Shown here one piece after another: positions 1 to 15,140 of a stretch of DNA of 23,806 nucleotides. Below the pieces are notes generated by a model, which saw only the letters and a list, made by a program, of their open reading frames with translations, was not told where the DNA came from and searched no databases. This stretch comes from Escherichia coli (GTDB lineage: Bacteria; Pseudomonadota; Gammaproteobacteria; Enterobacterales; Enterobacteriaceae), in NCBI GenBank assembly GCA_025544715.1, contig GCA_025544715.1_4109.5. One strand, given 5' to 3'. The position numbers and the translations under genes are program-made. How positions within the stretch are numbered: position 1 is the first letter of the stretch; every line of letters starts with the position of its first letter.

Positions 1-51
1 GTATAGTACTGAAAGCATTAATCAATGACAGAAAAAAGTTAAAATAATCTA

Positions 52-80
52 TTGACAATATCATCCAGTACTGGCATAAT
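52..80 (+). promoter_or_regulatory. sigma70-type promoter
   Basis: TTGACA (52-57), 17-nt spacer containing AGTACTG, CATAAT (75-80), then conserved ACTTACATCAAG start region. Confidence 0.6.
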
Positions 81-140
81 ACTTACATCAAGACGAGAAC
101 GTCACTAACCCATAGGGTGCACAAATGTAACTGTCTAATA

Positions 141-176
141 TTGATCAAAAAATGATCTGATCAATACTTGATCAAT
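141..176 (+). promoter_or_regulatory. cluster of TTGATCAA palindromes (four GATC sites in about 32 bp)
   Basis: attgatcaaaaaatgatctgatcaatacttgatcaatttg read directly; overlaps -35 of next promoter. Confidence 0.4.
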
Positions 177-195
177 TTGCGTAAAGTAGTATAAT
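168..195 (+). promoter_or_regulatory. candidate sigma70-type promoter
   Basis: TTGATC (168-173), 16-nt spacer, TATAAT (190-195). Confidence 0.45.
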
Positions 196-378
196 TCTAT
201 GCAGTTGGTTAGACGAAAGGTTATGATTAGTAGTGGAAGTGTATAAAAATTTTCATGGTGTATCGTTTCGCACATATGGCAATGAATATGTGGTATCATG
301 TGGATTGGAAAAAGTAAGAACAAGTAATATTATTGTCGCATTACAGTACTATAGTATTTTTATAATGAGGTTAAAATA

Positions 379-636
379 ATGGCTGTAGGATTCACAAAAG
401 ATGGGGCCGAGCAAGACGAGATTAACGCAGTGATTCAGGCCGCTGTTAACCACGCTAGAACGCAAATTAACGCACAAATAGAATCACTGATACATTGCCT
501 CGACTGCGGTGATAAAATCCCTGAGAATCGCCGCCAGGCCGTTAAGGGGTGTAAGTACTGCATAACTTGCCAGGAGGATCATGATAGTATTTTTAAACGT
601 CAACCGCGTAATTGTTGGCATAGATCTATGAGATAA
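379..636 (+). CDS. TraR/DksA-family C4 zinc-finger protein (85 aa)
   Basis: GAGG 8 nt upstream of ATG; paired Cys motifs CLDCGDKIP...CKYCITCQ typical of TraR/DksA zinc fingers. Confidence 0.75.
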   Translation: MAVGFTKDGAEQDEINAVIQAAVNHARTQINAQIESLIHCLDCGDKIPENRRQAVKGCKYCITCQEDHDSIFKRQPRNCWHRSMR

Positions 637-642
637 AAAGTA

Positions 643-670
643 TTGACAGTACTGAAAGATAGTGTATACT
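643..670 (+). promoter_or_regulatory. sigma70-type promoter
   Basis: TTGACA (643-648), 16-nt spacer with AGTACTG, TATACT (665-670). Confidence 0.6.
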
Positions 671-699
671 ATTTTATATCTTAACTGAGGATTGAAATC

Positions 700-1056
700 A
701 TGGGTATTCAACACATCACGCGTACTACTGACAATGGCGAGATCACTGGCTATCAAGTACAGGGCAAAGTAGCACAATTGCAGTACTGGTTTGTAAAACG
801 TGGATTGATTGCACCGGATCTTGATTATGACCGTGTAGCGTTTATTGATTCTCTTTATGTTGATCCTGATAGTCGGGGCAATGGTGAAGGTAACGAATTA
901 ATGAATGCCTTTATTGATGCCGCCGATGATTCAGATTGTATCATTTTAGAATGCGATACGGGAGAAGATAACGCCTTTAATCTTAAAGAATGGTACGAAG
1001 GTTTCGGATTCGAGGTACTGATCGATAGTGAATATCCTATCATGATTTTATCATAG
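700..1056 (+). CDS. small GNAT-like N-acetyltransferase (118 aa)
   Basis: GAGG RBS; VDPDSRGNGEGNELM resembles GNAT motif A (R-x-x-G-x-G) and C-terminal FNLKEWYEGFGF resembles motif B; judged by eye only. Confidence 0.55.
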   Translation: MGIQHITRTTDNGEITGYQVQGKVAQLQYWFVKRGLIAPDLDYDRVAFIDSLYVDPDSRGNGEGNELMNAFIDAADDSDCIILECDTGEDNAFNLKEWYEGFGFEVLIDSEYPIMILS

Positions 1057-1059
1057 TAC

Positions 1060-1088
1060 TTGCATTTAGTTTTCAGTACTGTTATAGT
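1060..1088 (+). promoter_or_regulatory. sigma70-type promoter
   Basis: TTGCAT (1060-1065), 17-nt spacer with AGTACTG, TATAGT (1083-1088), ACTTACATCAAG downstream. Confidence 0.6.
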
Positions 1089-1100
1089 ACTTACATCAAG

Positions 1101-1117
1101 GGGAAACATCTTCCCCT
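1101..1117 (+). other. 5' leader stem-loop (GGGGAA / TTCCCC)
   Basis: 6-bp inverted repeat just downstream of predicted transcription start, upstream of RBS. Confidence 0.5.
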
Positions 1118-1128
1118 ACTAAGAGGAA

Positions 1129-1323
1129 ATGAAAATGGAAAACTTATCAAGTATTTTAGTACAAGATGATTTCGGTAATCCTGGAAGTGCTATCATTGTT
1201 CGGGGTAATAAAGCAACATTTGTTATTGCTGGTGGACCTGTACAGCGTAGCATTAAAAACAATGCCGTTACTATTAATAATGTACGCTATCGCTTAGATA
1301 AAGAATTGATTCATAAACTGTAA
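1129..1323 (+). CDS. hypothetical protein (64 aa)
   Basis: ORF after promoter, hairpin and AAGAGG; in-frame ATG at 1135 is an alternative start. Confidence 0.6.
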   Translation: MKMENLSSILVQDDFGNPGSAIIVRGNKATFVIAGGPVQRSIKNNAVTINNVRYRLDKELIHKL

Positions 1324-1350
1324 TATTAATTTAATAGAGGATAACAATAA

Positions 1351-1674
1351 ATGTACATTCATACTACTATCACAAAGGAAGTCCGTTGCCAGTTCGAAAG
1401 TATTCCGGGCGTATGTTTCATCACTGGTACGTTTTCCCCTGGTGATCGTGATAATCCAGTACTGTTACAATTACGCCATCCATCATGGGATAAAGCATTT
1501 GATCTACCGTTGAATGAATTCGCAACTACTGCTGAAAAGTACATTAAAAATATTCGTGAGAATGATCGACTATTCATTAATGCTTTTAGTGATTCCGCGT
1601 TAAGCGAGATCCACGGCGTATTGGTTGCAATCATGGAATCAATGGAGAAAACTAAATTCAAACAAGGTGAATAA
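1351..1674 (+). CDS. hypothetical protein (107 aa)
   Basis: GAGGA RBS 8-9 nt upstream of ATG. Confidence 0.65.
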   Translation: MYIHTTITKEVRCQFESIPGVCFITGTFSPGDRDNPVLLQLRHPSWDKAFDLPLNEFATTAEKYIKNIRENDRLFINAFSDSALSEIHGVLVAIMESMEKTKFKQGE

Positions 1675-1680
1675 AAACTA

Positions 1681-1709
1681 TTGACAATGTAATCTAGTAC
1701 TGTATAATA
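1681..1709 (+). promoter_or_regulatory. sigma70-type promoter (consensus)
   Basis: TTGACA (1681-1686), 17-nt spacer with AGTACTG, TATAAT (1704-1709). Confidence 0.7.
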
Positions 1710-1720
1710 AGTTACATGAA

Positions 1721-1741
1721 GGGGAGAAAATGATTCTCCCC
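1721..1741 (+). other. 5' leader stem-loop (GGGGAGAA / TTCTCCCC)
   Basis: perfect 8-bp inverted repeat with 5-nt loop between promoter and RBS. Confidence 0.6.
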
Positions 1742-1758
1742 ACTGAGAGGAAAGAAAA

Positions 1759-1971
1759 ATGCAAGGTCAACTAATCGTTCGTAAATGGTCTGATACTAAT
1801 GAAAAACCGTGGGATGTTCAATACATCGGACCGGATGGGGTATCACGTTATCAGCCTGGCGTAACGCATAGTACTGAGCAATTCGCCAACGCTCACCGCG
1901 AACGCCTGTTAGAATCCATGAAACAGGGATACGGTGAAAAATTCATTCAAGATCATTGGCTGAAAGATTAA
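1759..1971 (+). CDS. hypothetical protein (70 aa)
   Basis: promoter, leader hairpin, GAGAGG RBS, ATG. Confidence 0.7.
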   Translation: MQGQLIVRKWSDTNEKPWDVQYIGPDGVSRYQPGVTHSTEQFANAHRERLLESMKQGYGEKFIQDHWLKD

Positions 1972-1988
1972 TATAAGGAGTACAGCTT

Positions 1989-2081
1989 ATGCAAATGAAT
2001 CCGATGATTATTGTTTTAGCTGTACTTATGATCATTCATGCAATAGTAGAAGTATTAAATCAATCAGGAGTAATAAAATGA
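1989..2081 (+). CDS. small hydrophobic peptide (30 aa, MQMNPMIIVLAVLMIIHAIVEVLNQSGVIK)
   Basis: AAGGAG 8 nt upstream of ATG; below ORF-track size cutoff; stop overlaps next start (ATGA). Confidence 0.4.
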   Translation: MQMNPMIIVLAVLMIIHAIVEVLNQSGVIK

Positions 2082-2251
2082 TCCAGGTAGAATTAACAGT
2101 ACTGAAAGATCTGTTTTATCGGTTAGGTACTACTGGCGAGTATCCTAAAAGTGATACCGCAAAACTTTTTGTATCACTCGATTTATGGCAACGCGAACAA
2201 TTAGTAATGTCCTGGCGTAAAGGTAAAGCAGATAGCGAGGTGAAAGCATGA
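2078..2251 (+). CDS. hypothetical small protein (57 aa)
   Basis: translated by hand; ATGA overlap with neighbours on both sides. Confidence 0.45.
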   Translation: MIQVELTVLKDLFYRLGTTGEYPKSDTAKLFVSLDLWQREQLVMSWRKGKADSEVKA

Positions 2252-2397
2252 AAGAATTCTTATTCGAAGTAGTGTTTCAAGGTGTCGGTAGTAACCAACT
2301 GATTCGCTCAAGTGGTTACAATGTTAACCAGGCATGGAATAACATTAAACAAATGTACCCGAACGCTATCACATATCGCAACCCGAAAGAAGTTTAA
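2248..2397 (+). CDS. hypothetical small protein (49 aa)
   Basis: translated by hand; ATGA overlap upstream; ends just before terminator-like hairpin. Confidence 0.45.
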   Translation: MKEFLFEVVFQGVGSNQLIRSSGYNVNQAWNNIKQMYPNAITYRNPKEV

Positions 2398-2411
2398 AAA
2401 GAATTGAAAAA

Positions 2412-2433
2412 GGGATTGACTCCGGTCAGTCCC
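2412..2433 (+). terminator. terminator-like hairpin GGGATTGAC-TCCG-GTCAGTCCC
   Basis: 9-bp stem with one G-U pair and 4-nt loop, preceded by A-run, followed by TTTGCTATTATATA. Confidence 0.5.
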
Positions 2434-2444
2434 TTTGCTATTAT
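2416..2444 (+). promoter_or_regulatory. promoter embedded in hairpin
   Basis: TTGACT (2416-2421), 17-nt spacer, TATTAT (2439-2444). Confidence 0.55.
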
Positions 2445-2535
2445 ATACGCATAGAAACAAATCAGCCCACAGGGTGCATAAATGTATCTATTGTTTGCTG
2501 GTGGCTAGTACTGAAAACTATTTTTAAAAAAGTAC

Positions 2536-2563
2536 TTGCATTGTACTTAGAATCAAGTATAAT
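2536..2563 (+). promoter_or_regulatory. sigma70-type promoter of the AAAAAGTACTTGCA class
   Basis: A-tract, TTGCAT (2536-2541), 16-nt spacer, TATAAT (2558-2563), GTTTTACAT downstream; same cassette at 5262, 6118, 6453, 7961. Confidence 0.6.
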
Positions 2564-2651
2564 GTTTTACATCAGGACGGGGAACGAAACAAGTAACCCC
2601 GTTAAGTAGTCCAGGAGTAAGACATAAGAAAACCTCCCCTGATAAAATAGT

Positions 2652-2680
2652 TTGACAATAGAAAGTAAACGAGTATAATA
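2652..2680 (+). promoter_or_regulatory. sigma70-type promoter (consensus)
   Basis: TTGACA (2652-2657), 17-nt spacer, TATAAT (2675-2680), ACTTACATCAA downstream. Confidence 0.7.
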
Positions 2681-2712
2681 CTTACATCAACCACTGATAA
2701 GGAAACATTAAA

Positions 2713-2988
2713 ATGCGGATTCTACTGACAGCTAACGAAATCGAACAAGTACTGACTACTAACCTGGAAGACTGGAAACGTGAAGCAGATATCCAGGCGG
2801 TTCAATGGCTTAACGATAAGTTAACGCCGGATGACTTAAGCAAGATTGTAGATCCTCAATTCTACGAAGATATTCACGACACCGCGTTAAGCGTCGAGGA
2901 TGTACTTGATAAGCACTACATTGATATTGATTTGCAGGTTTACGGTCGTAAAAACTTTATCACTATTCACGACATTTACAATAATTAA
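2713..2988 (+). CDS. hypothetical protein (91 aa)
   Basis: AAGGA RBS 10 nt upstream of ATG; promoter upstream. Confidence 0.7.
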   Translation: MRILLTANEIEQVLTTNLEDWKREADIQAVQWLNDKLTPDDLSKIVDPQFYEDIHDTALSVEDVLDKHYIDIDLQVYGRKNFITIHDIYNN

Positions 2989-2991
2989 GTA

Positions 2992-3019
2992 TTGACAAAG
3001 TATCTTAGTACTGTATAAT
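2992..3019 (+). promoter_or_regulatory. sigma70-type promoter (consensus)
   Basis: TTGACA (2992-2997), 16-nt spacer with AGTACTG, TATAAT (3014-3019); almost identical to promoter at 5569. Confidence 0.7.
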
Positions 3020-3034
3020 AGTTTACATCAAGGC

Positions 3035-3052
3035 AGGGGGAATGGTTCCCCT
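3035..3052 (+). other. 5' leader stem-loop (AGGGGGA / TTCCCCT)
   Basis: inverted repeat with AATGG loop between promoter and RBS. Confidence 0.55.
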
Positions 3053-3076
3053 CCTAACTAAAAGAGAGAAATTAAA

Positions 3077-3400
3077 ATGGCTATGATCCTGTCCCAGAAA
3101 GTAGAACTGAAAATTGTAACCTCCTTTGACATTAAAGTGAATCGCTGGACTGATCGGAACGGTAACACTTACCACTCTTGCTACGTGTCCGCATTGATTG
3201 GTGATCGCTGGGAGGATTTAGGACACGAAACATTTACATACGGTTACGGCACTCAAGGCGAATACACGGGCTTGGAGATCATTAAAGAAACCGTTATAGG
3301 TTTCAACCCGAAAGAAAACGTTATTCACCGCATCGAGGAAGAGATCAACAAAGAAATAACAGTTCGCTACTACGATGTAAAACGTAAGAAAGATATGTAA
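3077..3400 (+). CDS. hypothetical protein (107 aa)
   Basis: promoter, leader hairpin, purine-rich RBS, ATG. Confidence 0.7.
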   Translation: MAMILSQKVELKIVTSFDIKVNRWTDRNGNTYHSCYVSALIGDRWEDLGHETFTYGYGTQGEYTGLEIIKETVIGFNPKENVIHRIEEEINKEITVRYYDVKRKKDM

Positions 3401-3422
3401 TAGAATCCATTTAAAGTACTAT

Positions 3423-3451
3423 TTGACATTGCCCAGATAGTACTTTATAAT
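3423..3451 (+). promoter_or_regulatory. sigma70-type promoter (consensus)
   Basis: TTGACA (3423-3428), 17-nt spacer with AGTACT, TATAAT (3446-3451). Confidence 0.7.
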
Positions 3452-3495
3452 AGACTCTAACTTGTAGTACTAACTTAACTAATAGGATATATACC

Positions 3496-3891
3496 ATGAT
3501 TACTAAATTCTACGCTACCCGTGAAGCTGCCCGTATTGTTGCACGCGAGGAAGGAGAAGCATTTAAAGACATGGGCAAAGATGCACCGAAAGGCCAACGC
3601 TGGGCCGTACAGTTCAAAGAAATCTCTGATATTGTGAATTCACCTGAGCCAGTACTAACAGCAGAAGAACAAAAACAAGCTGAAGAACTGGCGGCAATTC
3701 TTAACGCTCAAGATGAATTCGTCGCGGGTACTGATATCCAGGTTGTAGTAAATTCGAATGCATGGACTCACGCGGATCACCTGGCAAACCTGAAGCGTCC
3801 AAGTGAACTGATTCGCAACCAAAAAGAGATCCGTCATGACCGTAAGGGAAACCGTGTTACCGTATACAGTAAACGCCGCCAGGTTATCTAA
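3496..3891 (+). CDS. hypothetical protein (131 aa)
   Basis: AGGA RBS; consensus promoter upstream; followed by strong terminator. Confidence 0.7.
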   Translation: MITKFYATREAARIVAREEGEAFKDMGKDAPKGQRWAVQFKEISDIVNSPEPVLTAEEQKQAEELAAILNAQDEFVAGTDIQVVVNSNAWTHADHLANLKRPSELIRNQKEIRHDRKGNRVTVYSKRRQVI

Positions 3892-3913
3892 TAACTTGCA
3901 GTACTAACAACAC

Positions 3914-3938
3914 GGCGGGATCAGTTCCCGCCTTTTTT
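3914..3938 (+). terminator. rho-independent terminator
   Basis: GGCGGGA-TCAGT-TCCCGCC 7-bp GC-rich stem followed by TTTTTT. Confidence 0.8.
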
Positions 3939-3953
3939 ATAGGATAAACTAAA

Positions 3954-4208
3954 ATGATGAAGGTACAACTATCTAAAGATAATATCTTGCGGGTACACTA
4001 TAAAGCACCACAGAGAATCATCACAAAGGCCGTACAGCTTGCTAATGAGTTTATTAATGGTAGTCTATTACCCAGGAAGTTAAGCAACGGGAAACTACGT
4101 GTTATCGATGTAGACACTAACAACAGAATAGTAATTGAGAATACTGGAAAGATAAACCTTTATGAGCATCAACAGTATAATAAGAAAATAAAACTAATAT
4201 CACGTTGA
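3954..4208 (+). CDS. hypothetical protein (84 aa)
   Basis: AGGA RBS then ATG; lies directly after terminator, so expression may rely on read-through. Confidence 0.6.
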   Translation: MMKVQLSKDNILRVHYKAPQRIITKAVQLANEFINGSLLPRKLSNGKLRVIDVDTNNRIVIENTGKINLYEHQQYNKKIKLISR

Positions 4209-4233
4209 CAGTACTCAAATGTTTTAGTACTAT
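4205..4233 (+). promoter_or_regulatory. candidate sigma70-type promoter
   Basis: TTGACA (4205-4210) overlapping upstream stop codon, 17-nt spacer with two AGTACT, TACTAT (4228-4233). Confidence 0.5.
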
Positions 4234-4262
4234 GTATCTATACCAACACGGGGGAAAACAAA

Positions 4263-4505
4263 ATGATTACTTTAGAAAAACGTATCAAAGAAACTACATC
4301 GCTGGTGGAACTGTTAACTGTACTGAAATGCCGTACTACTCGGTTTAGTACACCGGACTTTATTAATATGGTTGATGTTAACGGTCGTTATCGCATTGCA
4401 GTAGAACAAGGAACAGCGAAAGTATTCAGTACTAAAAACACTAAGGAAGTGATTCACGCTGTAAGTGTTAAAAAAGTAGTTGCAATTGATAGTAAAGTAC
4501 TGTAA
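4263..4505 (+). CDS. hypothetical protein (80 aa)
   Basis: GGGGGA RBS then ATG. Confidence 0.6.
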   Translation: MITLEKRIKETTSLVELLTVLKCRTTRFSTPDFINMVDVNGRYRIAVEQGTAKVFSTKNTKEVIHAVSVKKVVAIDSKVL

Positions 4506-4536
4506 GATAGTTACATTAACTCAAGGAGAACATGCA

Positions 4537-5121
4537 ATGCGTCAATATACTAAATTCATCCGGTCCCTGTCAGAAATGGAAACTAATAAAGAGATCCTTT
4601 CAGCTTGTCGGTTAGCTGGTCTGGAAATCATCGGGGCCGGATCATCCCGTATAGTATTCGCTTTAAATGATCGGTTAGTGATTAAGGTCGCTAATTGTGA
4701 TGCGGGTGTAGAACAAAATGAAACTGAATGTAAGGTATGGAATTTTTTAGACTATGACCGCCCTCAGTTGAAACAGTTCTTTGCTAAGGTGCATATGCAT
4801 TTAAGCGATCCTGATAATATGTTTATTGTTATGGATCGTTTGAGTACTGCAAGCAAAGGCAGTGTAAAGCACGTTAACGCGTGCAACGAATTAAAGTACA
4901 ATATTAAACGTAATGCCATTGAACGCCAGCACCGCTTTGCTGATGCATTACAACACGTTGATGATACCTTATCAACCCTAACGTTAAGAGATATCAGAAA
5001 ACAGAACATCGGCCAGGATCGCAACGGCCTTATTAAAGTACTTGATTACGGTTTAACCCGCAATATCTGGAATCAGTACTATAAAAAGCGTGATGTAAAA
5101 GCCGTAACTATAACACGATAA
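4537..5121 (+). CDS. minimal protein-kinase-like protein (194 aa)
   Basis: AGGAGA RBS 7 nt upstream of ATG 4537 (ORF track extends to 4480). Gly-rich loop IGAGSSRIVF, then VIKV lysine, catalytic-loop-like DIRKQNIG (D-x-K-x-x-N) and DFG-like LDYG. Confidence 0.55.
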   Translation: MRQYTKFIRSLSEMETNKEILSACRLAGLEIIGAGSSRIVFALNDRLVIKVANCDAGVEQNETECKVWNFLDYDRPQLKQFFAKVHMHLSDPDNMFIVMDRLSTASKGSVKHVNACNELKYNIKRNAIERQHRFADALQHVDDTLSTLTLRDIRKQNIGQDRNGLIKVLDYGLTRNIWNQYYKKRDVKAVTITR

Positions 5122-5135
5122 AAAAGATTAAAAAT

Positions 5136-5157
5136 GGGATTGACTTCGGTCAGTCCC
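5136..5157 (+). terminator. terminator-like hairpin GGGATTGAC-TTCG-GTCAGTCCC
   Basis: 9-bp stem, UUCG tetraloop, U-containing tail; directly after stop of kinase-like gene. Confidence 0.5.
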
Positions 5158-5168
5158 TTTGCTATTAT
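5140..5168 (+). promoter_or_regulatory. promoter embedded in hairpin
   Basis: TTGACT, 17-nt spacer, TATTAT (5163-5168). Confidence 0.55.
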
Positions 5169-5261
5169 ATATTCATTGAGAGATAGCTCACTGACCCACA
5201 GGGTGCAGAAGTGTATCTATTATATAAGTATTCAGTACTGAAAACTATTTTTAAAAAGTAC

Positions 5262-5290
5262 TTGCAAACTATCTCAAATCGCGTATAATG
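5262..5290 (+). promoter_or_regulatory. sigma70-type promoter of the AAAAAGTACTTGCA class
   Basis: TTGCAA (5262-5267), 17-nt spacer, TATAAT (5285-5290). Confidence 0.6.
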
Positions 5291-5301
5291 TTTTATATCG
5301 A

Positions 5302-5323
5302 GAGGGGGAAATGGTTCTCCCTG
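5302..5323 (+). other. 5' leader stem-loop (GGGGGAA / TTCTCCC)
   Basis: inverted repeat with AATGG loop; the loop ATG is the spurious ORF-track start at 5311. Confidence 0.55.
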
Positions 5324-5343
5324 GTACATTAAGGAATAAAATC

Positions 5344-5565
5344 ATGACTACAATGACTTGCATTCACGCTTCAAACCTGCTTAATGATGCGGCCTTTAAT
5401 GTTGAAACAGAATATCAATGTTATCGGGATGAAAATAAAAAAGTTTTTGTAGTTGATAATAATGGTTTCCATATTGAATTGCAATCCGGTTTCACTGGCA
5501 TTGATGGTAAATCAGTATGGGGCGTACAGGACGATAAAGGCACATATCATTTTAAACGTAATTAA
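5344..5565 (+). CDS. hypothetical protein (73 aa)
   Basis: start moved from 5311 (hairpin loop) to ATG 5344, 8 nt after AAGGA. Confidence 0.6.
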   Translation: MTTMTCIHASNLLNDAAFNVETEYQCYRDENKKVFVVDNNGFHIELQSGFTGIDGKSVWGVQDDKGTYHFKRN

Positions 5566-5568
5566 GTA

Positions 5569-5596
5569 TTGACAAAGTATATCAGTACTGTATAAT
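5569..5596 (+). promoter_or_regulatory. sigma70-type promoter (consensus)
   Basis: TTGACAAAGTAT-ATCAGTACTG-TATAATAGTTTACATCAAGG, near-identical to 2992-3033. Confidence 0.7.
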
Positions 5597-5608
5597 AGTT
5601 TACATCAA

Positions 5609-5627
5609 GGGGAGAATAGTTCTCCCC
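5609..5627 (+). other. 5' leader stem-loop (GGGGAGAA / TTCTCCCC)
   Basis: perfect 8-bp inverted repeat, loop TAG. Confidence 0.6.
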
Positions 5628-5649
5628 GATACTAAAAGGAAACAAAATT

Positions 5650-5922
5650 ATGTCTAGCTACTCCGCTACTATGATCATTAAAGATATGAACGGTAATCCT
5701 ACTTCTGCTGGTGGATCATTTGGAAACATTAACTTAGATGGTCGGTTATCAATTGAATCAGCCATCAATGCAGCGAAAGAAGTTTTTAAGAATGAATGTA
5801 CTGTAAGCAAGCTGGATTATATGGGCTTCGCTATCGAAAAAACTAATCGTTTTGTGGACTACAAAAAACCACTGATGATTGATACTAACCTGAAAGCGAA
5901 CGAAGTGGAATACTTATTATGA
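5650..5922 (+). CDS. hypothetical protein (90 aa)
   Basis: AAGGA RBS then ATG. Confidence 0.65.
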   Translation: MSSYSATMIIKDMNGNPTSAGGSFGNINLDGRLSIESAINAAKEVFKNECTVSKLDYMGFAIEKTNRFVDYKKPLMIDTNLKANEVEYLL

Positions 5923-6110
5923 CAGTTGAAGAAGTTAAAAAAGTACTGGCAGTACTACGCTATCATAATCATTGCAAGGTTAAGAATGATCCTGATTATC
6001 TTGATTCATCCCTGGAAGAGGATACACTACAAGCAATAAGCCATATGCAAAAAATGCTTAAGCGTATGACTGAAAAGAATAGACCGGACTATATCGGAAA
6101 TAAAATTTAA
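5919..6110 (+). CDS. hypothetical protein (63 aa)
   Basis: ATGA overlap with upstream stop, suggesting translational coupling. Confidence 0.55.
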   Translation: MTVEEVKKVLAVLRYHNHCKVKNDPDYLDSSLEEDTLQAISHMQKMLKRMTEKNRPDYIGNKI

Positions 6111-6117
6111 AAAGTAC

Positions 6118-6145
6118 TTGCATTGTAGTTAGATTAACGTATAAT
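6118..6145 (+). promoter_or_regulatory. sigma70-type promoter of the AAAAAGTACTTGCA class
   Basis: TTGCAT (6118-6123), 16-nt spacer, TATAAT (6140-6145). Confidence 0.6.
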
Positions 6146-6157
6146 GTTTTACATAGA

Positions 6158-6178
6158 GCGGGGGAATAGTTCTCCCGC
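6158..6178 (+). other. 5' leader stem-loop (GCGGGGGAA / TTCTCCCGC)
   Basis: 9-bp stem with one G-U pair; same hairpin repeated at 7132-7152. Confidence 0.6.
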
Positions 6179-6196
6179 CAGTCCAGGAGATACACC

Positions 6197-6463
6197 ATGA
6201 ACACTATCGAAATCACTATCAATGCTCACGTATACGACAACGTAGTACTGCAAACTACTATGACCGCTCACGATACCAGTACTTTGCGGAATACCGTTGT
6301 AAGTGCTGTATGTGCTGCAATCGGTGATGTAGCCCTGGAAAATGCAGAACACATCAACAACGGTTTCACTATGTGCAAGCGTGATAACGCAAAACATATC
6401 ATCGTAGAAGGTTACGGCGGTGTAGAATATAACCTTTATATGAAAAAAGTACTTGCATCGTAA
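6197..6463 (+). CDS. hypothetical protein (88 aa)
   Basis: CCAGGAG RBS then ATG. Confidence 0.65.
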   Translation: MNTIEITINAHVYDNVVLQTTMTAHDTSTLRNTVVSAVCAAIGDVALENAEHINNGFTMCKRDNAKHIIVEGYGGVEYNLYMKKVLAS

Positions 6464-6480
6464 TTAAAACAAAGTATAAT
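6453..6480 (+). promoter_or_regulatory. sigma70-type promoter overlapping end of upstream CDS
   Basis: AAAAAGTACTTGCAT with TTGCAT at 6453-6458, 16-nt spacer, TATAAT (6475-6480). Confidence 0.55.
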
Positions 6481-6490
6481 GTTTTGCATA

Positions 6491-6509
6491 GGGGGAGATA
6501 TCCTCCCCC
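6491..6509 (+). other. 5' leader stem-loop (GGGGGAG / CTCCCCC)
   Basis: perfect 7-bp inverted repeat, loop ATATC. Confidence 0.6.
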
Positions 6510-6528
6510 ACTAATAAGGAGTACTAAA

Positions 6529-6753
6529 ATGGCTAATCATGATGACCTGATTCGGGAAGTAGCTAACCTGGCGGCAGAAAAGAAATCATTCGATTCTATC
6601 TATAACACCGCTCACCGTGATTCAGTACTGGCATCAACGCAAGATCAAAAAGATGAACTGATCGCCACCTATCATGAAGCATGGAAGTATTACCGCCAAT
6701 GGGAGAAAGAAGAAAGTGAGTCTACCATTGACGGCCTCAATAATCTAATCTAA
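6529..6753 (+). CDS. hypothetical protein (74 aa)
   Basis: ORF-track start 6484 is a TTG upstream of the hairpin; ATG 6529 follows AAGGAG RBS. Confidence 0.65.
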   Translation: MANHDDLIREVANLAAEKKSFDSIYNTAHRDSVLASTQDQKDELIATYHEAWKYYRQWEKEESESTIDGLNNLI

Positions 6754-6771
6754 AGTTTTATTTCAGTACTA

Positions 6772-6800
6772 TTGACAATACTGGATAGTACTGATATGAT
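6772..6800 (+). promoter_or_regulatory. sigma70-type promoter
   Basis: TTGACA (6772-6777), 17-nt spacer with AGTACTG, TATGAT (6795-6800). Confidence 0.55.
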
Positions 6801-6827
6801 AACTTTACTATCTAAAGGGGAAACATA

Positions 6828-7085
6828 ATGGAACAGTTCACACAATATCGGGTAAATCCTCAAGCTATGGCCTATGTAGAAGACCATAAAACATTACCAG
6901 TACTGCAACCAGTTAAAGGTCATATCTATCGTGCAATGTCATGGAGTAACGCCCAGGATGGATATACTACCGCCGCCGTGGGTATGTACTGCGGGAATGG
7001 TGAATGGTTTGATCCTAGTAATCCGGTAGCCATTGACAGTACTGAAAAAATGAAATGGGCCGACTACATCGAAGATATTTCATAA
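6828..7085 (+). CDS. hypothetical protein (85 aa)
   Basis: AAAGGGGA RBS then ATG. Confidence 0.65.
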   Translation: MEQFTQYRVNPQAMAYVEDHKTLPVLQPVKGHIYRAMSWSNAQDGYTTAAVGMYCGNGEWFDPSNPVAIDSTEKMKWADYIEDIS

Positions 7086-7091
7086 AACTAT

Positions 7092-7119
7092 TTGACAGTA
7101 CTAACCAGTAATGTATAAT
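7092..7119 (+). promoter_or_regulatory. sigma70-type promoter
   Basis: TTGACA (7092-7097), 16-nt spacer with AGTACT, TATAAT (7114-7119), GTTTTACATAGAG downstream. Confidence 0.65.
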
Positions 7120-7131
7120 GTTTTACATAGA

Positions 7132-7152
7132 GCGGGGGAATAGTTCTCCCGC
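7132..7152 (+). other. 5' leader stem-loop (GCGGGGGAA / TTCTCCCGC)
   Basis: identical to hairpin at 6158-6178. Confidence 0.6.
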
Positions 7153-7174
7153 CAATAGTTTGGAGTAAAACATT

Positions 7175-7375
7175 ATGTCTATCGCTATCGCCCTGGTTGA
7201 AGTACTGAAAGAAGCTAAAGCCAACCTTATCGATGTACAGATTAAGGAATTGCAAAATGGTTTAATCGGCTGTACTTGTACCGCTGGTGGAGCGGCAGAC
7301 TATCGGGAATTCGAATCACTTGAATCGATGGTCCGTTATCTTACCATGATCGTAGAAGATTGGAGAATCATCTAA
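7175..7375 (+). CDS. hypothetical protein (66 aa)
   Basis: GGAG RBS then ATG. Confidence 0.6.
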   Translation: MSIAIALVEVLKEAKANLIDVQIKELQNGLIGCTCTAGGAADYREFESLESMVRYLTMIVEDWRII

Positions 7376-7393
7376 CAAAAAAGAATAAAAAAA

Positions 7394-7415
7394 GGGATTG
7401 ACTCCGGTCAGTCCC
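7394..7415 (+). terminator. terminator-like hairpin GGGATTGAC-TCCG-GTCAGTCCC
   Basis: same hairpin as 2412-2433. Confidence 0.5.
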
Positions 7416-7426
7416 TTTGCTATTAT
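7398..7426 (+). promoter_or_regulatory. promoter embedded in hairpin
   Basis: TTGACT, 17-nt spacer, TATTAT (7421-7426). Confidence 0.55.
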
Positions 7427-7538
7427 ATACGCATAGACAAAAACTAGCCCACTGGGTGCAGGAGTGTATCCAAAATATATAGTTAATAACGGTGAGTAAC
7501 TATTTGCTGGTGGAGTGAAAACTATTAATAAAAAACTA

Positions 7539-7567
7539 TTGACAAAGTATATCAGTACTGCAATAAT
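7539..7567 (+). promoter_or_regulatory. candidate sigma70-type promoter
   Basis: TTGACAAAGTATATCAGTACTG then AATAAT; weaker -10 than sibling promoter at 5569. Confidence 0.5.
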
Positions 7568-7620
7568 GTATCTCGTAGGGCGGCAATGGTGCGACGGCCC
7601 ACAAAGTTAGGAGTAACATC

Positions 7621-7953
7621 ATGTCTACATCAATCGCTATCGTTAAAGCTTTCATCCGTACCAATGTTTCTTCTGTATTCATCGACGGTCTGGATCGGGA
7701 AGTAGAATACTCAATCATTATCGCACAGACTGCAAACGGTGCTCGGTACATCCTGAATGATAGTGAAGCAAATCACTACTACTTCACTAAAGCTACTGGC
7801 TTTAAACGCATCGATGCTGACGTAGTATACGCTAAGATGAATAAGCTGGTAGACAAGATTAACGCTAAAGGTACTATAGATTTACAGTACTGGAACGAAA
7901 CCGATCCAGAATACGGATCTCACCGCTACCTGAATCCAGGAATTAAAATGTAA
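7621..7953 (+). CDS. hypothetical protein (110 aa)
   Basis: TTAGGAG RBS then ATG; GC-rich leader hairpin upstream. Confidence 0.7.
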   Translation: MSTSIAIVKAFIRTNVSSVFIDGLDREVEYSIIIAQTANGARYILNDSEANHYYFTKATGFKRIDADVVYAKMNKLVDKINAKGTIDLQYWNETDPEYGSHRYLNPGIKM

Positions 7954-7960
7954 AAAGTAC

Positions 7961-7988
7961 TTGCATAGTACTTAGAATCAAGTATAAT
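7961..7988 (+). promoter_or_regulatory. sigma70-type promoter of the AAAAAGTACTTGCA class
   Basis: about 45 bp identical to promoter at 2527-2570. Confidence 0.6.
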
Positions 7989-8000
7989 GTTTTACATAGA

Positions 8001-8022
8001 GAGGGAGAAATGGTTCTCCCTC
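8001..8022 (+). other. 5' leader stem-loop (GAGGGAGAA / TTCTCCCTC)
   Basis: perfect 9-bp inverted repeat with ATGG loop; loop ATG is the spurious ORF-track start 8010. Confidence 0.6.
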
Positions 8023-8042
8023 CTAAATTAAGGAGTTTTATC

Positions 8043-8444
8043 ATGACCTTCTCAATCAATTCCTTCGCTGACGTTTTAGTACTGGCACGGACTTTCGGTA
8101 AAGATGCACTGGAGTACGCTGTAAGTAATGGCACTATCCAACCGGAACAATGCCGCATCATTGGAAACTGCAAACGTTGGGCGGTATCCAATACTATTGC
8201 ACTGGAAAACTTCAACGATGGCAACAATGAATATTCTGTTGATGTAGTATTCGAAGCCGTTGATCTCGGCGGTATCTATAACACTAACTTGAATGATGTG
8301 CGTATCGTTCGCACGGGGTTCGGTGCTTATGATGTATCTATCCGTGAAGCTATGGACAAGGGATACATTAGCAAGGACTTACTTGCTCACATCATGCAGC
8401 TGTGGACGGAACGTAACGAAGCACGTACTATCTTAGGGCTGTAA
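8043..8444 (+). CDS. hypothetical protein (133 aa)
   Basis: start moved from 8010 to ATG 8043, which follows AAGGAG RBS. Confidence 0.65.
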   Translation: MTFSINSFADVLVLARTFGKDALEYAVSNGTIQPEQCRIIGNCKRWAVSNTIALENFNDGNNEYSVDVVFEAVDLGGIYNTNLNDVRIVRTGFGAYDVSIREAMDKGYISKDLLAHIMQLWTERNEARTILGL

Positions 8445-8468
8445 GCAATACACATCACCAAACATCAT

Positions 8469-8488
8469 AGGCCGCTCTCTAGCGGCCT
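8469..8488 (+). other. GC-rich palindrome AGGCCGCT-CTCT-AGCGGCCT
   Basis: 8-bp perfect inverted repeat in AT-rich context; no U-run, so not a classic terminator. Confidence 0.35.
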
Positions 8489-8512
8489 TAACTATATCAG
8501 GAGGGCATACAT

Positions 8513-8722
8513 ATGTTCTATACCGTATACAGCGTTCTAGGTACTATTGCAGGCGTACATGATAACGTCAATGATGCTATGCGTACAGTACTGCAACAGG
8601 TTCCACTAAAGCCTAAGACTGTTAAGCAGATGACAGCACGACTAACCAGGGCGACGGATGGCGTGGAAGTATGGCAGGACTACGGGGATACACAGATAAT
8701 CGTTAGCGTAACGAAGGATTAA
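8513..8722 (+). CDS. hypothetical protein (69 aa)
   Basis: AGGAGG RBS then ATG. Confidence 0.6.
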   Translation: MFYTVYSVLGTIAGVHDNVNDAMRTVLQQVPLKPKTVKQMTARLTRATDGVEVWQDYGDTQIIVSVTKD

Positions 8723-8750
8723 TGCGTAAAGGGATCTAGTACTGATTCAG

Positions 8751-8941: not shown

Positions 8942-8971
8942 ATGATTGATATTAATTTTAAGGGAGTCCCT

Positions 8972-9169
8972 ATGCATATTTTAACTCAAGCAGAACACCA
9001 CGAAAGACTTATCAATAACATGGCTATGATAATGTATAAGTCACATGAACGTGGTATGTCCTATAAGCGTGAATTAGTTATGGCACTATTCATTGGGACT
9101 AACTTTCAGGAAAGGTATGTCAACGATTGGATTTGGTATTTAATTGAAGATATAACGAGTAAACTATGA
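8972..9169 (+). CDS. family-1 paralog 1 (LGTNYQ-motif small protein)
   Basis: AAGGGAG RBS then ATG 8972 (ORF-track start 8942 is upstream of the RBS); C-terminal LFIGTNFQERYV...IEDITSKL. Confidence 0.65.
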   Translation: MHILTQAEHHERLINNMAMIMYKSHERGMSYKRELVMALFIGTNFQERYVNDWIWYLIEDITSKL

Positions 9170-9366
9170 AAATGCGTAAATTAACCGAAAAAGAATATCA
9201 AGCACTGTTACGTAAAAACTACACAAAGATTTATAATACAGACTCACACGTAGAAAGAATGGAGTTATACCTTTTGATTACATTGGGAACTAACTATCAG
9301 GATGCATGGGTAACGAAATATGTGGATACATTGAAAAATAAAACATTGTCCACGAGGAAACAATGA
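9166..9366 (+). CDS. family-1 paralog 2
   Basis: ATGA overlap; ITLGTNYQDAWV motif. Confidence 0.7.
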   Translation: MKMRKLTEKEYQALLRKNYTKIYNTDSHVERMELYLLITLGTNYQDAWVTKYVDTLKNKTLSTRKQ

Positions 9367-9572
9367 AAACTATAACACGAACCCAATCATTCGGACTTAT
9401 CTTGAAATACATGGACTTAATGGTGGATATCAGCAAAGACCTGCCTAAAACTGAAATTGAAGTTGCAAGAGCAGAGATCCGCATGTTGGCTGTACTGAAC
9501 ACAAACCATCAGGAAGATTATGTTGAAGAATGGATTCATTTTTTAATAGAAGATATTAAGAGTAAATTATGA
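9363..9572 (+). CDS. family-1 paralog 3
   Basis: ATGA overlap; AVLNTNHQEDYV...IEDIKSKL. Confidence 0.7.
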   Translation: MKTITRTQSFGLILKYMDLMVDISKDLPKTEIEVARAEIRMLAVLNTNHQEDYVEEWIHFLIEDIKSKL

Positions 9573-9784
9573 TTATTATAGAAAACTCATATCAATATAC
9601 TGAACGCATTGCTGCCAGGCAACTTGAAATCCTCATAATATACGAAGAGACTTCTGATTTAAACTTAGCTGAGGTATTGGAAAATGAAATACTTTTGGGT
9701 GCATTCTTGGGAACTGACTATCAGGAGTATTATGAGCAAAAGTATTTGTCATCTCTTGAGAAATACATCAGGAGCAAATTATGA
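9569..9784 (+). CDS. family-1 paralog 4
   Basis: ATGA overlap; AFLGTDYQEYY motif. Confidence 0.7.
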   Translation: MIIIENSYQYTERIAARQLEILIIYEETSDLNLAEVLENEILLGAFLGTDYQEYYEQKYLSSLEKYIRSKL

Positions 9785-12011: not shown

Positions 12012-12040
12012 TATTGAAAATAAATGCGAGGATAATGAAC

Positions 12041-15059: not shown

Positions 15060-15082
15060 GAGTACTGATAGTACAAATGTTC

Positions 15083-15111: not shown

Positions 15112-15140
15112 GCACCAACGTTAATCATAGGGTACAGATT

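What the first reader, a model, noticed from the sequence alone, without database searches (positions are those of the whole stretch)
93..378. Long untranslated leader with a GATC-rich TTGATCAA repeat cluster upstream of the TraR/DksA-like gene
Between the first promoter (52-80) and the gene at 379 lie about 285 nt with no convincing ORF on the coding strand. The stretch contains the CCCATAGGGTGCA box, then three TTGATCAA-type palindromes with four GATC sites in about 32 bp (141-176) overlapping a second candidate promoter (168-195). Clustered palindromes overlapping a promoter are typical of operators, and clustered GATC sites can make promoter activity methylation-sensitive.
Basis: inference. 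Interest (0 to 1): 0.5.

Follow-up and report, generated by a model that had tools for sequence, protein, structure and literature searches.

The report
GATC-dyad operator in phage promoter cassette
The supposed long untranslated leader is really a small optional gene cassette of a jumbo E. coli phage, carrying two early promoters, a conserved 48-codon gene and a conserved cluster of paired GATC sites around the second promoter that looks like a methylation-readable protein-binding switch.

Summary
The window comes from an Asteriusvirus (PBECO4/121Q-like jumbo coliphage), in its long terminal-repeat early region. The four GATC sites (143, 154, 159, 170), the TTGATCAA-type palindromes and the second sigma70-like promoter (168-195) are real. 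The cluster is non-random and is the only one of its kind in a whole 348-kb relative.

The "285-nt leader without an ORF" is wrong. Positions 233-379 hold a conserved 48-codon gene (PHROG 38664) with a clear coding signature, and its stop overlaps the DksA/TraR-like start (TAATG).

Positions 49-380 form a 332-bp cassette: P1, a leader box, GATC dyads around P2, and ORF48. An 11-bp direct repeat flanks it, and it is precisely absent from phAPEC6 and ph0011.

The GATC sites form 15-bp dyads, GATCA-N5-TGATC. These are kept across two lineages whose surrounding sequence is only about 56% identical. One dyad has moved: it overlaps the -35 in one lineage and +1 in the other. A further conserved copy lies at a second intergenic locus.

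Best reading: operator dyads for a dimeric protein controlling P2, probably Dam-sensitive, since the genus encodes a Dam-family methylase. The binder is unidentified; Fis, SeqA or a phage protein are candidates. Moderately interesting; no experimental test was possible.

The parts
38..48 (+). Left copy of the 11-bp direct repeat GTTAAAATAAT. It includes the stop codon (45-47) of the upstream gp292-like gene.
   Evidence: Read from the sequence. phAPEC6 has a single copy exactly at the junction between the gp292 homologue and the DksA-like gene.
49..380 (+). The 332-bp accessory early-gene cassette as a whole: P1, leader box, GATC dyads around P2, and ORF48.
   Evidence: Present in 27 of 38 matching phage records. 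Precisely absent from phAPEC6 and ph0011, where the upstream gene abuts the DksA-like gene. It lies inside the annotated direct terminal repeat of vB_Ec-M-J.
52..80 (+). P1, a strong sigma70-type early promoter (TTGACA-17-CATAAT, with TG upstream).
   Evidence: 11 of 12 matches. About 97% conserved between lineages. Paralogous to other early promoters in the region.
92..103 (+). Small hairpin GACG-AGAA-CGTC near the 5' end of the P1 transcript.
   Evidence: Predicted in both the MFE and centroid folds. Invariant among relatives. Paralogous copies carry different small hairpins at the same place.
109..121 (+). CCCATAGGGTGCA leader box, one of a repeated family (CCCAYNGGGTGCA).
   Evidence: Four copies in the window against 0.26 expected. 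Seven copies in all of 121Q, all within the 136-154 kb early region, and each about 20-25 nt downstream of the -10 of an early promoter, in either orientation.
143..157 (.). Dyad I, GATCAAAAAATGATC, made of GATC sites 1 and 2 and centred about -52 relative to the inferred P2 start.
   Evidence: Conserved as GATCAATAAATGATC in the 121Q lineage.
159..173 (.). Dyad II, GATCAATACTTGATC, made of GATC sites 3 and 4. It overlaps the P2 -35 hexamer and is centred about -36.
   Evidence: Site 3 is specific to the PBECO4 lineage. The 121Q lineage instead has a dyad GATCAA(A/T)TCTTGATC just after the -10, centred about +4.
168..195 (+). P2, the second sigma70-type promoter (-35 TTGATC at 168-173, -10 TATAAT at 190-195). 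The start is inferred at about 201-203.
   Evidence: 10 of 12 matches. The -10 is invariant in ten phages. It aligns with the second promoter of three paralogous two-promoter modules in the window.
215..220 (+). Shine-Dalgarno-like GAAAGG upstream of ORF48. The 12-nt spacing to the start codon is long.
   Evidence: AAAGG is invariant in alignment A2. Its function is inferred.
233..379 (+). ORF48, a conserved 48-aa protein of unknown function (GTG start here, TTG in the 121Q lineage). Its TAA stop overlaps the ATG of the next gene (TAATG).
   Evidence: PHROG 38664, E=1.5e-34; substitutions by codon position are 11/7/19-22, with 7-10 synonymous codon changes against 0-3 in shifted frames; only two protein clusters in 5.8 billion sequences; predicted as four strands plus a C-terminal helix.
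370..380 (+). Right copy of the 11-bp direct repeat GTTAAAATAAT.
   Evidence: compared with phAPEC6.
379..636 (+). DksA/TraR-type C4 zinc-finger gene. It is the downstream gene served by the cassette's promoters and is translationally coupled to ORF48.
   Evidence: Pfam PF01258, E=1.1e-11. PHROG 54.

Best explanation
Positions 93-378 are the interior of a 332-bp optional early-gene cassette (49-380) in the terminal-repeat early region of an Asteriusvirus jumbo phage. Host RNA polymerase starts at P1 (52-80) and at P2 (168-195). Both transcripts encode a conserved 48-aa protein (233-379) whose stop overlaps the start of the DksA/TraR-like gene, so the cassette adds promoters and one small gene in front of that gene.

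The GATC cluster is two adjacent 15-bp dyads of the form GATCA-N5-TGATC (143-157 and 159-173). The most likely function is an operator: a dimeric DNA-binding protein occupies the dyads. One dyad sits where the UP element lies in paralogous promoters. The other overlaps the -35 hexamer in this lineage, or the transcription start in the 121Q lineage. Occupancy would thereby modulate P2, most simply by repressing it.

Every half-site contains a Dam target, and the genus encodes its own Dam-family methylase. Occupancy, and possibly -35 recognition itself, is therefore probably sensitive to the methylation state of the phage DNA.

Shown: the anatomy, the conservation, the site turnover, genome-wide uniqueness, the coding status of ORF48 and the cassette indel.

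Inferred: protein binding, the direction of regulation and methylation sensitivity. The binder is not identified. Host Fis fits the sequence rules, SeqA fits the spacing, and a dedicated phage protein would explain the full half-site.
For: Conservation
- The three shared GATC tetramers and the -10 hexamer are 100% conserved between the window and 121Q. The rest of 136-232 is 56% identical, so P is about 9e-4 for 12 of 12 GATC positions surviving by chance (alignment).

Site turnover that preserves the architecture
- The PBECO4 lineage has an extra TGATCAA at 158-164, which makes a dyad over the -35.
- The 121Q lineage lacks that site and has two extra TGATCAA just after the -10, which make a dyad over +1.

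Genome-wide uniqueness
- In 121Q, only four adjacent GATC pairs are 11 bp apart. Three of them are GATCA-N5-TGATC dyads: two in the cassette and one in the intergenic region upstream of gp467.
- That third dyad is conserved in PBECO4 and Ecwhy_1 with a variable A/T-rich centre.

Half-site flanks
- Every left half-site is followed by A and every right half-site is preceded by T. Genome-wide frequencies for these flanks are 0.30 and 0.40.

Clustering
- 7 of 2000 simulations reach four GATC in 30 bp in the window. The cluster is unique in the 348-kb relative.

P2 is a real promoter
-.

A methylase is available
- 121Q gp417 matches Pfam PF05869 (Dam), E=7.4e-32. It is conserved at 80% identity or more in 36 phage records, which fits the genus.

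Candidate binders from the literature
- The dyads satisfy the published Fis motif: G/C at +/-7, a Y-R step at +/-3-4, an A/T-rich centre and T/A preferred at +/-8 (PMC4784862).
- SeqA prefers GATC motifs about 10 or 20 bp apart (PMC2912659).
- Paired GATC sites in a phage promoter region are known to control regulator binding in P22 gtr (PMC2909390).
Against: - There is no experimental evidence of any kind, and no binder has been identified.
- Only two independent lineages carry the cassette, and within each lineage the sequences are nearly identical. The comparative signal therefore rests on few events.
- New TGATCAA copies could arise by local duplication or gene conversion rather than by selection.
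- Fis sites carry only about 7 bits of information (PMC2018646), so matching the consensus is weak evidence. Fis also does not explain why positions -6/-5 are always A-T. At the second locus, Ecwhy_1 has a disfavoured base at +8.
- SeqA does not explain the conserved flanks.
- The distant ORF48 homologue in Pectobacterium phage CBB sits behind an ordinary promoter with no GATC cluster.
- Several Asteriusviruses lack the whole cassette, so whatever it does is dispensable.
- The second-locus dyad is lost in Turkey5.
Confidence: 0.5

Rival explanations
1. A pure Dam/SeqA device. The cluster is simply a dense set of Dam sites on one helical face. After the phage DNA replicates, the hemimethylated sites recruit host SeqA, which sequesters P2, or methylation of the -35 GATC directly changes sigma70 binding. 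No sequence-specific regulator is needed.
For: - Exact GATC is conserved at every site, and pairs are 11 bp apart.
- SeqA binds best to GATC motifs about 10 or 20 bp apart (PMC2912659).
- One GATC lies inside the -35 hexamer.
- The phage encodes a Dam-family methylase.
- The cluster is unique in the genome.
Against: - SeqA and Dam read only GATC. Yet the base after each left half-site is always A and the base before each right half-site is always T, against background frequencies of 0.30 and 0.40.
- An isolated copy of the same dyad is conserved at a second locus, where two sites alone would make a weak SeqA target.
- The specificity of the phage methylase has not been tested.
Confidence: 0.2
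2. Host Fis sites. The dyads are high-affinity binding sites for the growth-phase nucleoid protein Fis. They would couple P2 to host physiology, replacing the UP element that paralogous promoters carry at the same position.
For: - All dyads fit G-N2-Y-R-(A/T-rich 5)-Y-R-N2-C, mostly with T/A at +/-8 (motif definition in PMC4784862).
- In paralogous modules the same position holds an A/T-rich UP-like tract.
- From memory, not verified here: the Fis site at the IS50 inside end overlaps Dam sites and is methylation-sensitive (Weinreich and Reznikoff 1992).
Against: - The Fis motif is low in information, about 7 bits (PMC2018646). The consensus pattern is not enriched in the window: 5 matches against 5.4 expected.
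- Fis does not require A-T at -6/-5, yet all half-sites keep GATC.
- Some sites carry disfavoured +/-8 bases (C at -8 in 121Q dyad I, C at +8 in Ecwhy_1 at the second locus).
Confidence: 0.15
3. No function. The TGATCAA copies are a by-product of local slippage or duplication in an A/T-rich spacer between two promoters, and are carried along neutrally.
For: - The motif copies are short and similar.
- The cassette is dispensable.
- The CBB homologue lacks the cluster.
- Only two lineages are available.
Against: - The shared GATCs are invariant in a segment that is otherwise 56% identical.
- Dyads were gained independently at different polymerase-overlapping positions in the two lineages.
- The same dyad is conserved at an unrelated locus.
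- The cluster is unique in 348 kb.
Confidence: 0.12
4. One reading: a long structured 5' leader or a discrete small RNA spanning 93-378 that regulates the DksA-like gene.
For: P1 transcripts do carry about 146 nt before ORF48. This stretch contains two small invariant hairpins and a repeated box.
Against: - A conserved protein-coding gene fills 233-379.
- No Rfam family matches, at gathering threshold or at E up to 5.
- The fold z-score is -1.66, and 12 of 200 shuffles fold as well.
- The alignment fold has an unfavourable covariation term and only one compensatory pair.
- No terminator lies inside the interval.
Confidence: 0.03

Closest known systems
Dam-plus-regulator controlled phage promoters (P22 gtr with OxyR, PMC2909390; Mu mom with OxyR, from memory)
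   Same: Several GATC sites are arranged as pairs within regulator half-sites upstream of and overlapping a phage promoter. In gtr one GATC lies in the promoter region, and methylation abolishes regulator binding.
   Different: The OxyR half-site consensus is not present here: only matches with 3 of 10 positions wrong, no better than chance. Pair spacing is 11 bp rather than 13. The host phage is strictly lytic, so heritable phase variation is not the purpose. The regulator is unknown.
SeqA-bound GATC clusters (oriC, the dnaA promoter; genome-wide data in PMC2912659)
   Same: Dense GATC sites about one helical turn apart, which is the spacing SeqA favours. One site lies in a -35 hexamer.
   Different: The conserved flanking bases make a longer dyad than SeqA needs. 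The element is not an origin, because it is absent from some members of the genus.
Fis binding sites upstream of strong promoters
   Same: A 15-bp core bounded by G and C, Y-R steps at +/-3-4 and an A/T-rich centre, located where UP or activator elements sit.
   Different: GATC is invariant in all half-sites, which Fis does not require. The Fis motif is too degenerate for the match to be diagnostic.
PeSL mobile regulatory cassettes of T4-type phages (PMC2839356)
   Same: Small cassettes with strong sigma70-like early promoters, here with the -35 embedded in a terminator stem-loop at 2409-2436, 5136-5160 and 7391-7418. They sit among small non-essential genes and are associated with insertion/deletion differences between close relatives.
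   Different: The cassette's own P1 has no stem-loop. The indel junction is an 11-bp repeat at the stop/start overlap rather than a PeSL. The extra leader box and the GATC dyads have no counterpart in the PeSL abstract read here.
P1 pac site (TGATCA/G hexamer arrays regulated by Dam; from memory)
   Same: Clustered TGATCA hexamers containing Dam sites in a phage genome.
   Different: The cluster lies about 11-12 kb inside a roughly 21-kb terminal repeat rather than at a genome end. It is absent from some members of the genus.

Membership tests
Sigma70-type promoter (P2) | A -35 and a -10 hexamer with 16-18 bp spacing, conserved among relatives. | tested here: met
   TTGATC-16-TATAAT, 10 of 12 matches. 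The -10 is invariant in ten phages. It aligns with the second promoter of three paralogous modules. The transcription start has not been mapped.
Protein-coding gene (ORF48, PHROG 38664) | An intact frame across relatives, codon-position-biased substitution and a profile match. | tested here: met
   No indels or stops in ten phages. Substitutions by codon position are 11/7/19-22. There are 7-10 synonymous codon changes against 0-3 in shifted frames. PHROG E=1.5e-34.
Dam/OxyR epigenetic switch (gtr, agn43, mom type) | OxyR half-sites (ATAGnTnnnAnCTAT) that overlap the GATC sites. | tested here: not met
   The best matches in 130-200 have 3 mismatches of 10. Window-wide there are 186 such matches against 204 expected.
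Dam/OxyR epigenetic switch (gtr, agn43, mom type) | Regulator binding blocked by GATC methylation, and methylation blocked by binding. | not testable with these tools
   Needs EMSA or footprinting on methylated and unmethylated DNA, and 6mA mapping.
SeqA target | Two or more GATC sites on the same helical face, about 10 or 20 bp apart. | tested here: met
   G-to-G spacings are 11, 5 and 11 bp. The preference is from PMC2912659.
SeqA target | Hemimethylation-dependent SeqA binding in vivo or in vitro. | not testable with these tools
   No binding data exist.
Fis binding site | A 15-bp core with G at -7, C at +7, Y-R steps at +/-3-4 and an A/T-rich centre. | tested here: met
   143-157 matches fully; 159-173 matches with one C in the centre. 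The definition is from PMC4784862. This is a low-information criterion.
Fis binding site | Measured Fis binding, or fis-dependent promoter activity. | not testable with these tools
   No data exist.
FNR/CRP-type site | TTGAT-N4-ATCAA. | tested here: not met
   Only a 2-mismatch match at 135-148. Window-wide there are 33 matches against 35 expected. The TTGAT and ATCAA halves overlap instead of being 4 bp apart.
Known cis-regulatory RNA or sRNA | A match to an Rfam covariance model, or a significantly stable and covarying structure. | tested here: not met
   No Rfam hit at gathering threshold; only E>1 noise otherwise. z=-1.66. The covariation term is unfavourable.
PeSL-type mobile promoter cassette | A strong early promoter combined with a terminator stem-loop, associated with indels between close relatives. 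| tested here: inconclusive
   Three neighbouring modules have the -35 inside a terminator-like hairpin. The cassette is an indel relative to phAPEC6 and ph0011. But the cassette's own P1 lacks the hairpin, and the junction is an 11-bp repeat.
Replication origin or pac site with GATC repeats | Essential and universally present in the genus. For pac, located at the genome terminus. | tested here: not met
   Absent from phAPEC6 and ph0011. It lies about 11-12 kb inside the 21-kb terminal repeat.

The most novel reading that the evidence does not exclude
The GATCA-N5-TGATC dyads are operators of a so-far unidentified regulator whose binding depends on adenine methylation. The regulator could be phage-encoded, or host SeqA or Fis used in this way. 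Together with the phage's own Dam-family methylase, the dyads would let a strictly lytic jumbo phage distinguish parental, fully methylated DNA from freshly replicated DNA. That would time an accessory early promoter in the terminal repeat, and a second locus next to a late-type promoter. In effect it would be an epigenetic developmental timer rather than a phase-variation switch.
Probability: 0.12. Interest if true: 0.65.

Novelty: new variant of a known kind. Interest (0 to 1): 0.35.

Why it matters
Transcriptional control in Rak2/Asteriusvirus-type jumbo phages is essentially unstudied, and most of their 600 or so genes are unknown. This locus offers a compact, testable regulatory element: a 31-bp dyad array around a defined promoter. 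Natural 'knock-out' relatives lack the cassette, and a natural variant has one dyad moved from the -35 to +1.

If the dyads are methylation-sensitive operators, they would extend Dam-dependent promoter control, known from Mu mom, P22 gtr, IS10 and Tn5, to the developmental programme of a lytic jumbo phage that carries its own Dam-family enzyme. They would also give a handle on when the DksA/TraR-like polymerase-binding factor is made.

If they are not, the finding reduces to routine annotation: a missed small gene and an indel cassette.

Tried and rejected
- Known RNA families: Rfam at gathering threshold on the whole window and at E up to 5 on 1-700 found nothing meaningful.
- Structured leader: the single-sequence fold is not significant, and an 8-sequence alignment fold shows no covariation.
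- Minus-strand ORF 135-323: it is broken by stops in the 121Q lineage.
- ORF48 as a recognisable DNA-binding protein: there is no Pfam hit. The AlphaFold best model scores pLDDT 88, but the other four models score 50-59. No PDB fold match has E<0.7. So there is no support for autoregulation.
- Wider diversity of the cassette: only two protein clusters turned up in 5.8 billion sequences, and only 121Q itself in IMG/VR. A third lineage could not be tested.
- FNR consensus and OxyR consensus: not met.
- IHF consensus WATCAANNNNTTR: checked by eye only. Each candidate has two or more mismatches.
- Origin or pac reading: rejected because of position and because the cassette is dispensable.
- Literature: no source in the library describes a TTGATCAA or GATC-dyad operator, or Fis/Dam interplay at IS50. 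The IS50 point rests on memory only.

Full report
Origin of the window. Positions 1-1200 match 37 phage records, all jumbo coliphages or Salmonella phages of the genus Asteriusvirus. Identity is 97.7% to SHEFM2K, about 97% to the PBECO4-like group and 88% to 121Q. In vB_Ec-M-J the homologous stretch lies inside the annotated 21.5-kb direct terminal repeat. In fEgEco12 it lies at 11.1-11.5 kb of a 20,993-bp terminal repeat (PMC13070987). The surroundings are closely packed small genes behind strong sigma70-type promoters, which is typical of an early region.

Checking the observation. GATC occurs at 143, 154, 159 and 170. TGATCAA occurs at 142, 158 and 169. Perfect TTGATCAA palindromes lie at 141-148 and 168-175, and a TGATCT lies at 153-158. 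The box CCCATAGGGTGCA is at 109-121. P1 is TTGACA-17-CATAAT at 52-80, and the second promoter is TTGATC-16-TATAAT at 168-195. GATC is not enriched in the window as a whole (60 sites against 75 expected). However, this is the only place with three or more sites within 60 bp. Four sites in 30 bp appeared in only 7 of 2000 Markov-simulated windows. I assembled the complete 121Q genome and scanned it. The homologous cluster, with five GATC in 68 bp, is the only place in 348.5 kb with four or more GATC in 80 bp. The cluster is therefore real and non-random.

The 'leader without an ORF' is wrong. ORF 233-379 (48 codons, GTG start) is annotated in 121Q as gp293, in PBECO4, and in several other records. 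It matches PHROG 38664 end to end with E=1.5e-34. Across ten phages from two lineages the frame has no indel and no stop. Differences between lineages fall 11/7/19-22 on codon positions 1/2/3. There are 7-10 synonymous codon changes, against 0-3 when the frame is shifted. The minus-strand ORF 135-323 is broken in the 121Q lineage. The TAA stop at 377-379 overlaps the ATG of the DksA/TraR-type gene (Pfam PF01258, E=1.1e-11), giving the TAATG arrangement of coupled genes. The family is tiny: two clusters among 5.8 billion proteins and nothing new in IMG/VR. There is also an unannotated, weakly similar ORF in the terminal repeat of Pectobacterium phage CBB, with the same stop/start overlap. Its predicted fold is four strands plus a helix. 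Confidence was high in only one of five models, and no solved structure matches, so its function is unknown.

No RNA element was detected. Rfam gave nothing. The P1 leader, about 87 to 240, folds no better than shuffles (z=-1.66), and the alignment fold shows no covariation.

The interval is an optional cassette. In phAPEC6 and ph0011 the gp292-like upstream gene ends exactly on the ATG of the DksA-like gene. The phAPEC6 junction reads ...AAAAAGTTAAAATAATGGCTGTAGG. In the window, 332 bp (49-380) are interposed and are flanked by the 11-bp direct repeat GTTAAAATAAT at 38-48 and 370-380. Twenty-seven of 38 matching records carry the cassette. Its first part (P1 plus the box) is a repeated unit. 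Three other places in the window have the same order: promoter 1, CCCAYNGGGTGCA-AATGTATCT, an A/T-rich UP-like tract, then promoter 2. In those copies promoter 1 has its -35 inside a terminator-like hairpin. This resembles the promoter/stem-loop (PeSL) cassettes that drive modular shuffling in T4-type phages (PMC2839356). What is unique to this cassette is the GATC array, which replaces the UP-like tract, and ORF48.

Comparative anatomy of the GATC array. Alignment of ten phages shows two lineages. Between the window and 121Q, positions 40-135 are 97% identical and 331-400 are 93% identical. Positions 136-232 are only 64% identical and 233-330 only 63%. Within that divergent core, the GATC tetramers at 143, 154 and 170 and the -10 hexamer are invariant. 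Excluding them, the segment is 56% identical, so keeping all 12 GATC positions by chance has P of about 9e-4.

The remaining sites differ by lineage. The PBECO4 lineage has TGATCAA at 158-164. The 121Q lineage has AAAAAAG there, and instead has TATAATTCTGATCAA(A/T)TCTTGATCAAAGG immediately after the -10.

Read as pairs, the sites form 15-bp dyads GATCA-N5-TGATC:
- Dyad I is GATCAAAAAATGATC (GATCAATAAATGATC in 121Q). It is present in both lineages, about -52 from the inferred P2 start.
- Dyad II is GATCAATACTTGATC. It lies over the -35 in the PBECO4 lineage.
- The equivalent dyad in the 121Q lineage is GATCAA(A/T)TCTTGATC, over +1.

In all of 121Q only four adjacent GATC pairs are 11 bp apart. 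Three are such dyads: the two in the cassette and one at 215,908, in the intergenic region upstream of gp467. That third dyad is conserved in PBECO4 (TGATCATATTTTGATC) and Ecwhy_1 (TGATCAAAAATTGATC). The half-sites are constant and the A/T centre varies. It is lost in the more distant Turkey5. Every left half-site is followed by A and every right half-site is preceded by T, against genome-wide frequencies of 0.30 and 0.40. Conserved half-sites, fixed spacing, a free centre, site turnover that keeps overlap with the polymerase footprint, and recurrence at another locus together are the signature of a binding site for a dimeric protein.

Candidate binders.
- FNR (TTGAT-N4-ATCAA) and OxyR (ATAGnTnnnAnCTAT) consensus sequences are not met.
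- Fis. The dyads fit the published Fis motif: G/C at +/-7, Y-R steps at +/-3-4, an A/T-rich centre and T/A preferred at +/-8 (PMC4784862). But that motif carries only about 7 bits (PMC2018646), is not enriched in the window, and does not explain why the two bases after G are always A-T.
- SeqA. It prefers GATC motifs about 10 or 20 bp apart (PMC2912659). That explains the exact GATC and the spacing, but not the flanks.
- A dedicated phage protein reading GATCA half-sites would explain everything but is hypothetical. ORF48 shows no DNA-binding features.

Methylation is a plausible input. 121Q gp417 belongs to Pfam PF05869 (Dam), E=7.4e-32, and 36 phage records carry it at 80% identity or more. 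The relatives CBB and GAP32 are also reported to encode adenine methylases (PMC5259590). Whether the enzyme targets GATC is assumed from characterised family members, which I recall from my own knowledge and did not test.

Mechanism proposed. P1 and P2 are early promoters read by host polymerase from the terminal repeat. P2 is flanked and overlapped by two dyads. Occupancy by a dimeric protein would occlude the UP/-35 region in this lineage, or the start site in the 121Q lineage, and so tune or shut off P2. Because each half-site, and the -35 itself, contains a Dam target, the outcome probably depends on whether the DNA is fully methylated, hemimethylated or unmethylated. Precedents are P22 gtr (paired GATCs in OxyR half-sites, one pair in the promoter region, binding abolished by methylation; PMC2909390) and, from memory, Mu mom. 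The anatomy and conservation are shown. Binding, direction of regulation and methylation dependence are inferred. An origin or pac function is excluded because the cassette is dispensable and lies in the interior of the repeat.

Verdict. The 'leader' interpretation is wrong. The 'operator / methylation-sensitive promoter' interpretation is the best available and now rests on comparative evidence. It is a new variant of a known kind of element in a poorly studied phage group. It is moderately interesting and readily testable, but nothing here is functionally proven.

Noticed in passing
whole window; densest in 1-8743, then 13513-15609 and 23549-23766: The palindrome AGTACT (often CAGTACTG) occurs 70 times against about 6 expected (maximum 14 in 100 shuffles). 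It lies inside or next to early promoters (TTGACAGTACTG..., TATAGTACTTAC) and also inside ORFs. 121Q has 903 copies, making it the most over-represented 6-bp palindrome there, with peak density in the 130-150 kb early region. The motif is also present in a CBB promoter.
   Followed up: partly
window 109-121, 2466-2478, 5195-5207, 7448-7460; 121Q 136.5-153.9 kb: The box CCCAYNGGGTGCA has only 7 copies in the whole 121Q genome, on both strands. Each lies about 20-25 nt downstream of the -10 of a strong early promoter, so at about +20 to +35 of early transcripts. It is often preceded by a small variable hairpin. The stem CCC/GGG is invariant and the loop varies. It could be a 5'-leader RNA signal (antitermination or processing) or a DNA site. 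It is not in Rfam.
   Followed up: partly
window 2409-2444, 5136-5165, 7391-7425: Early promoters whose -35 (TTGACT) is embedded in a G+C-rich terminator-like hairpin (AAAGGGATTGACTCCGGTCAGTCCCTTT) followed by GCTATTATAT. These resemble the PeSL promoter/terminator cassettes of T4-type phages.
   Followed up: partly
window 8942-14725: A head-to-tail array of 26 small ORFs (66-96 aa), many with overlapping stop/start codons. Twenty-five of the 26 have paralogues within the array (blastp E<=1e-3), so this is a large tandem expansion of one small-protein family.
   Followed up: partly
window 136-330 compared with its flanks: Mosaic divergence between the PBECO4-like and 121Q-like lineages. The P2/operator segment and the first two-thirds of ORF48 are about 64% identical, while the flanks 40-135 and 331-400 are 93-97% identical. 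The last 15 codons of ORF48 are identical at the DNA level, which suggests recombination or an overlapping constraint.
   Followed up: partly
121Q (L018 15900-15925 = genome 215,906-215,924); PBECO4 and Ecwhy_1 homologues: A further conserved GATCA-N5-TGATC dyad lies in the intergenic region between gp466 and gp467. It sits between a terminator hairpin and a conserved TAAATA (late-promoter-like) motif.
   Followed up: partly
121Q whole genome (L014-L020): CCATGG, CAGCTG, AGGCCT and AGCGCT are completely absent. About 42 copies of CCATGG and about 52 of CAGCTG would be expected. This indicates strong restriction-site avoidance. GATC is not avoided (620 copies).
   Followed up: no
Pectobacterium phage CBB, L013 about 702-850: An unannotated 48-codon ORF (MRVLKSHNDIIFATYGDCYMVKKGRMKIVCNNPVIALYYYCKLLSENIK) is weakly similar to ORF48. 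It lies behind a TTGACAAGTACT...TATAGT promoter in the terminal repeat, and its stop overlaps the next gene's ATG.
   Followed up: partly
121Q 135,194-137,161 (L016 35194-37161): A gap of about 2 kb without annotated genes contains leftward-facing early promoters with the leader box. It may be near the terminal-repeat boundary.
   Followed up: no
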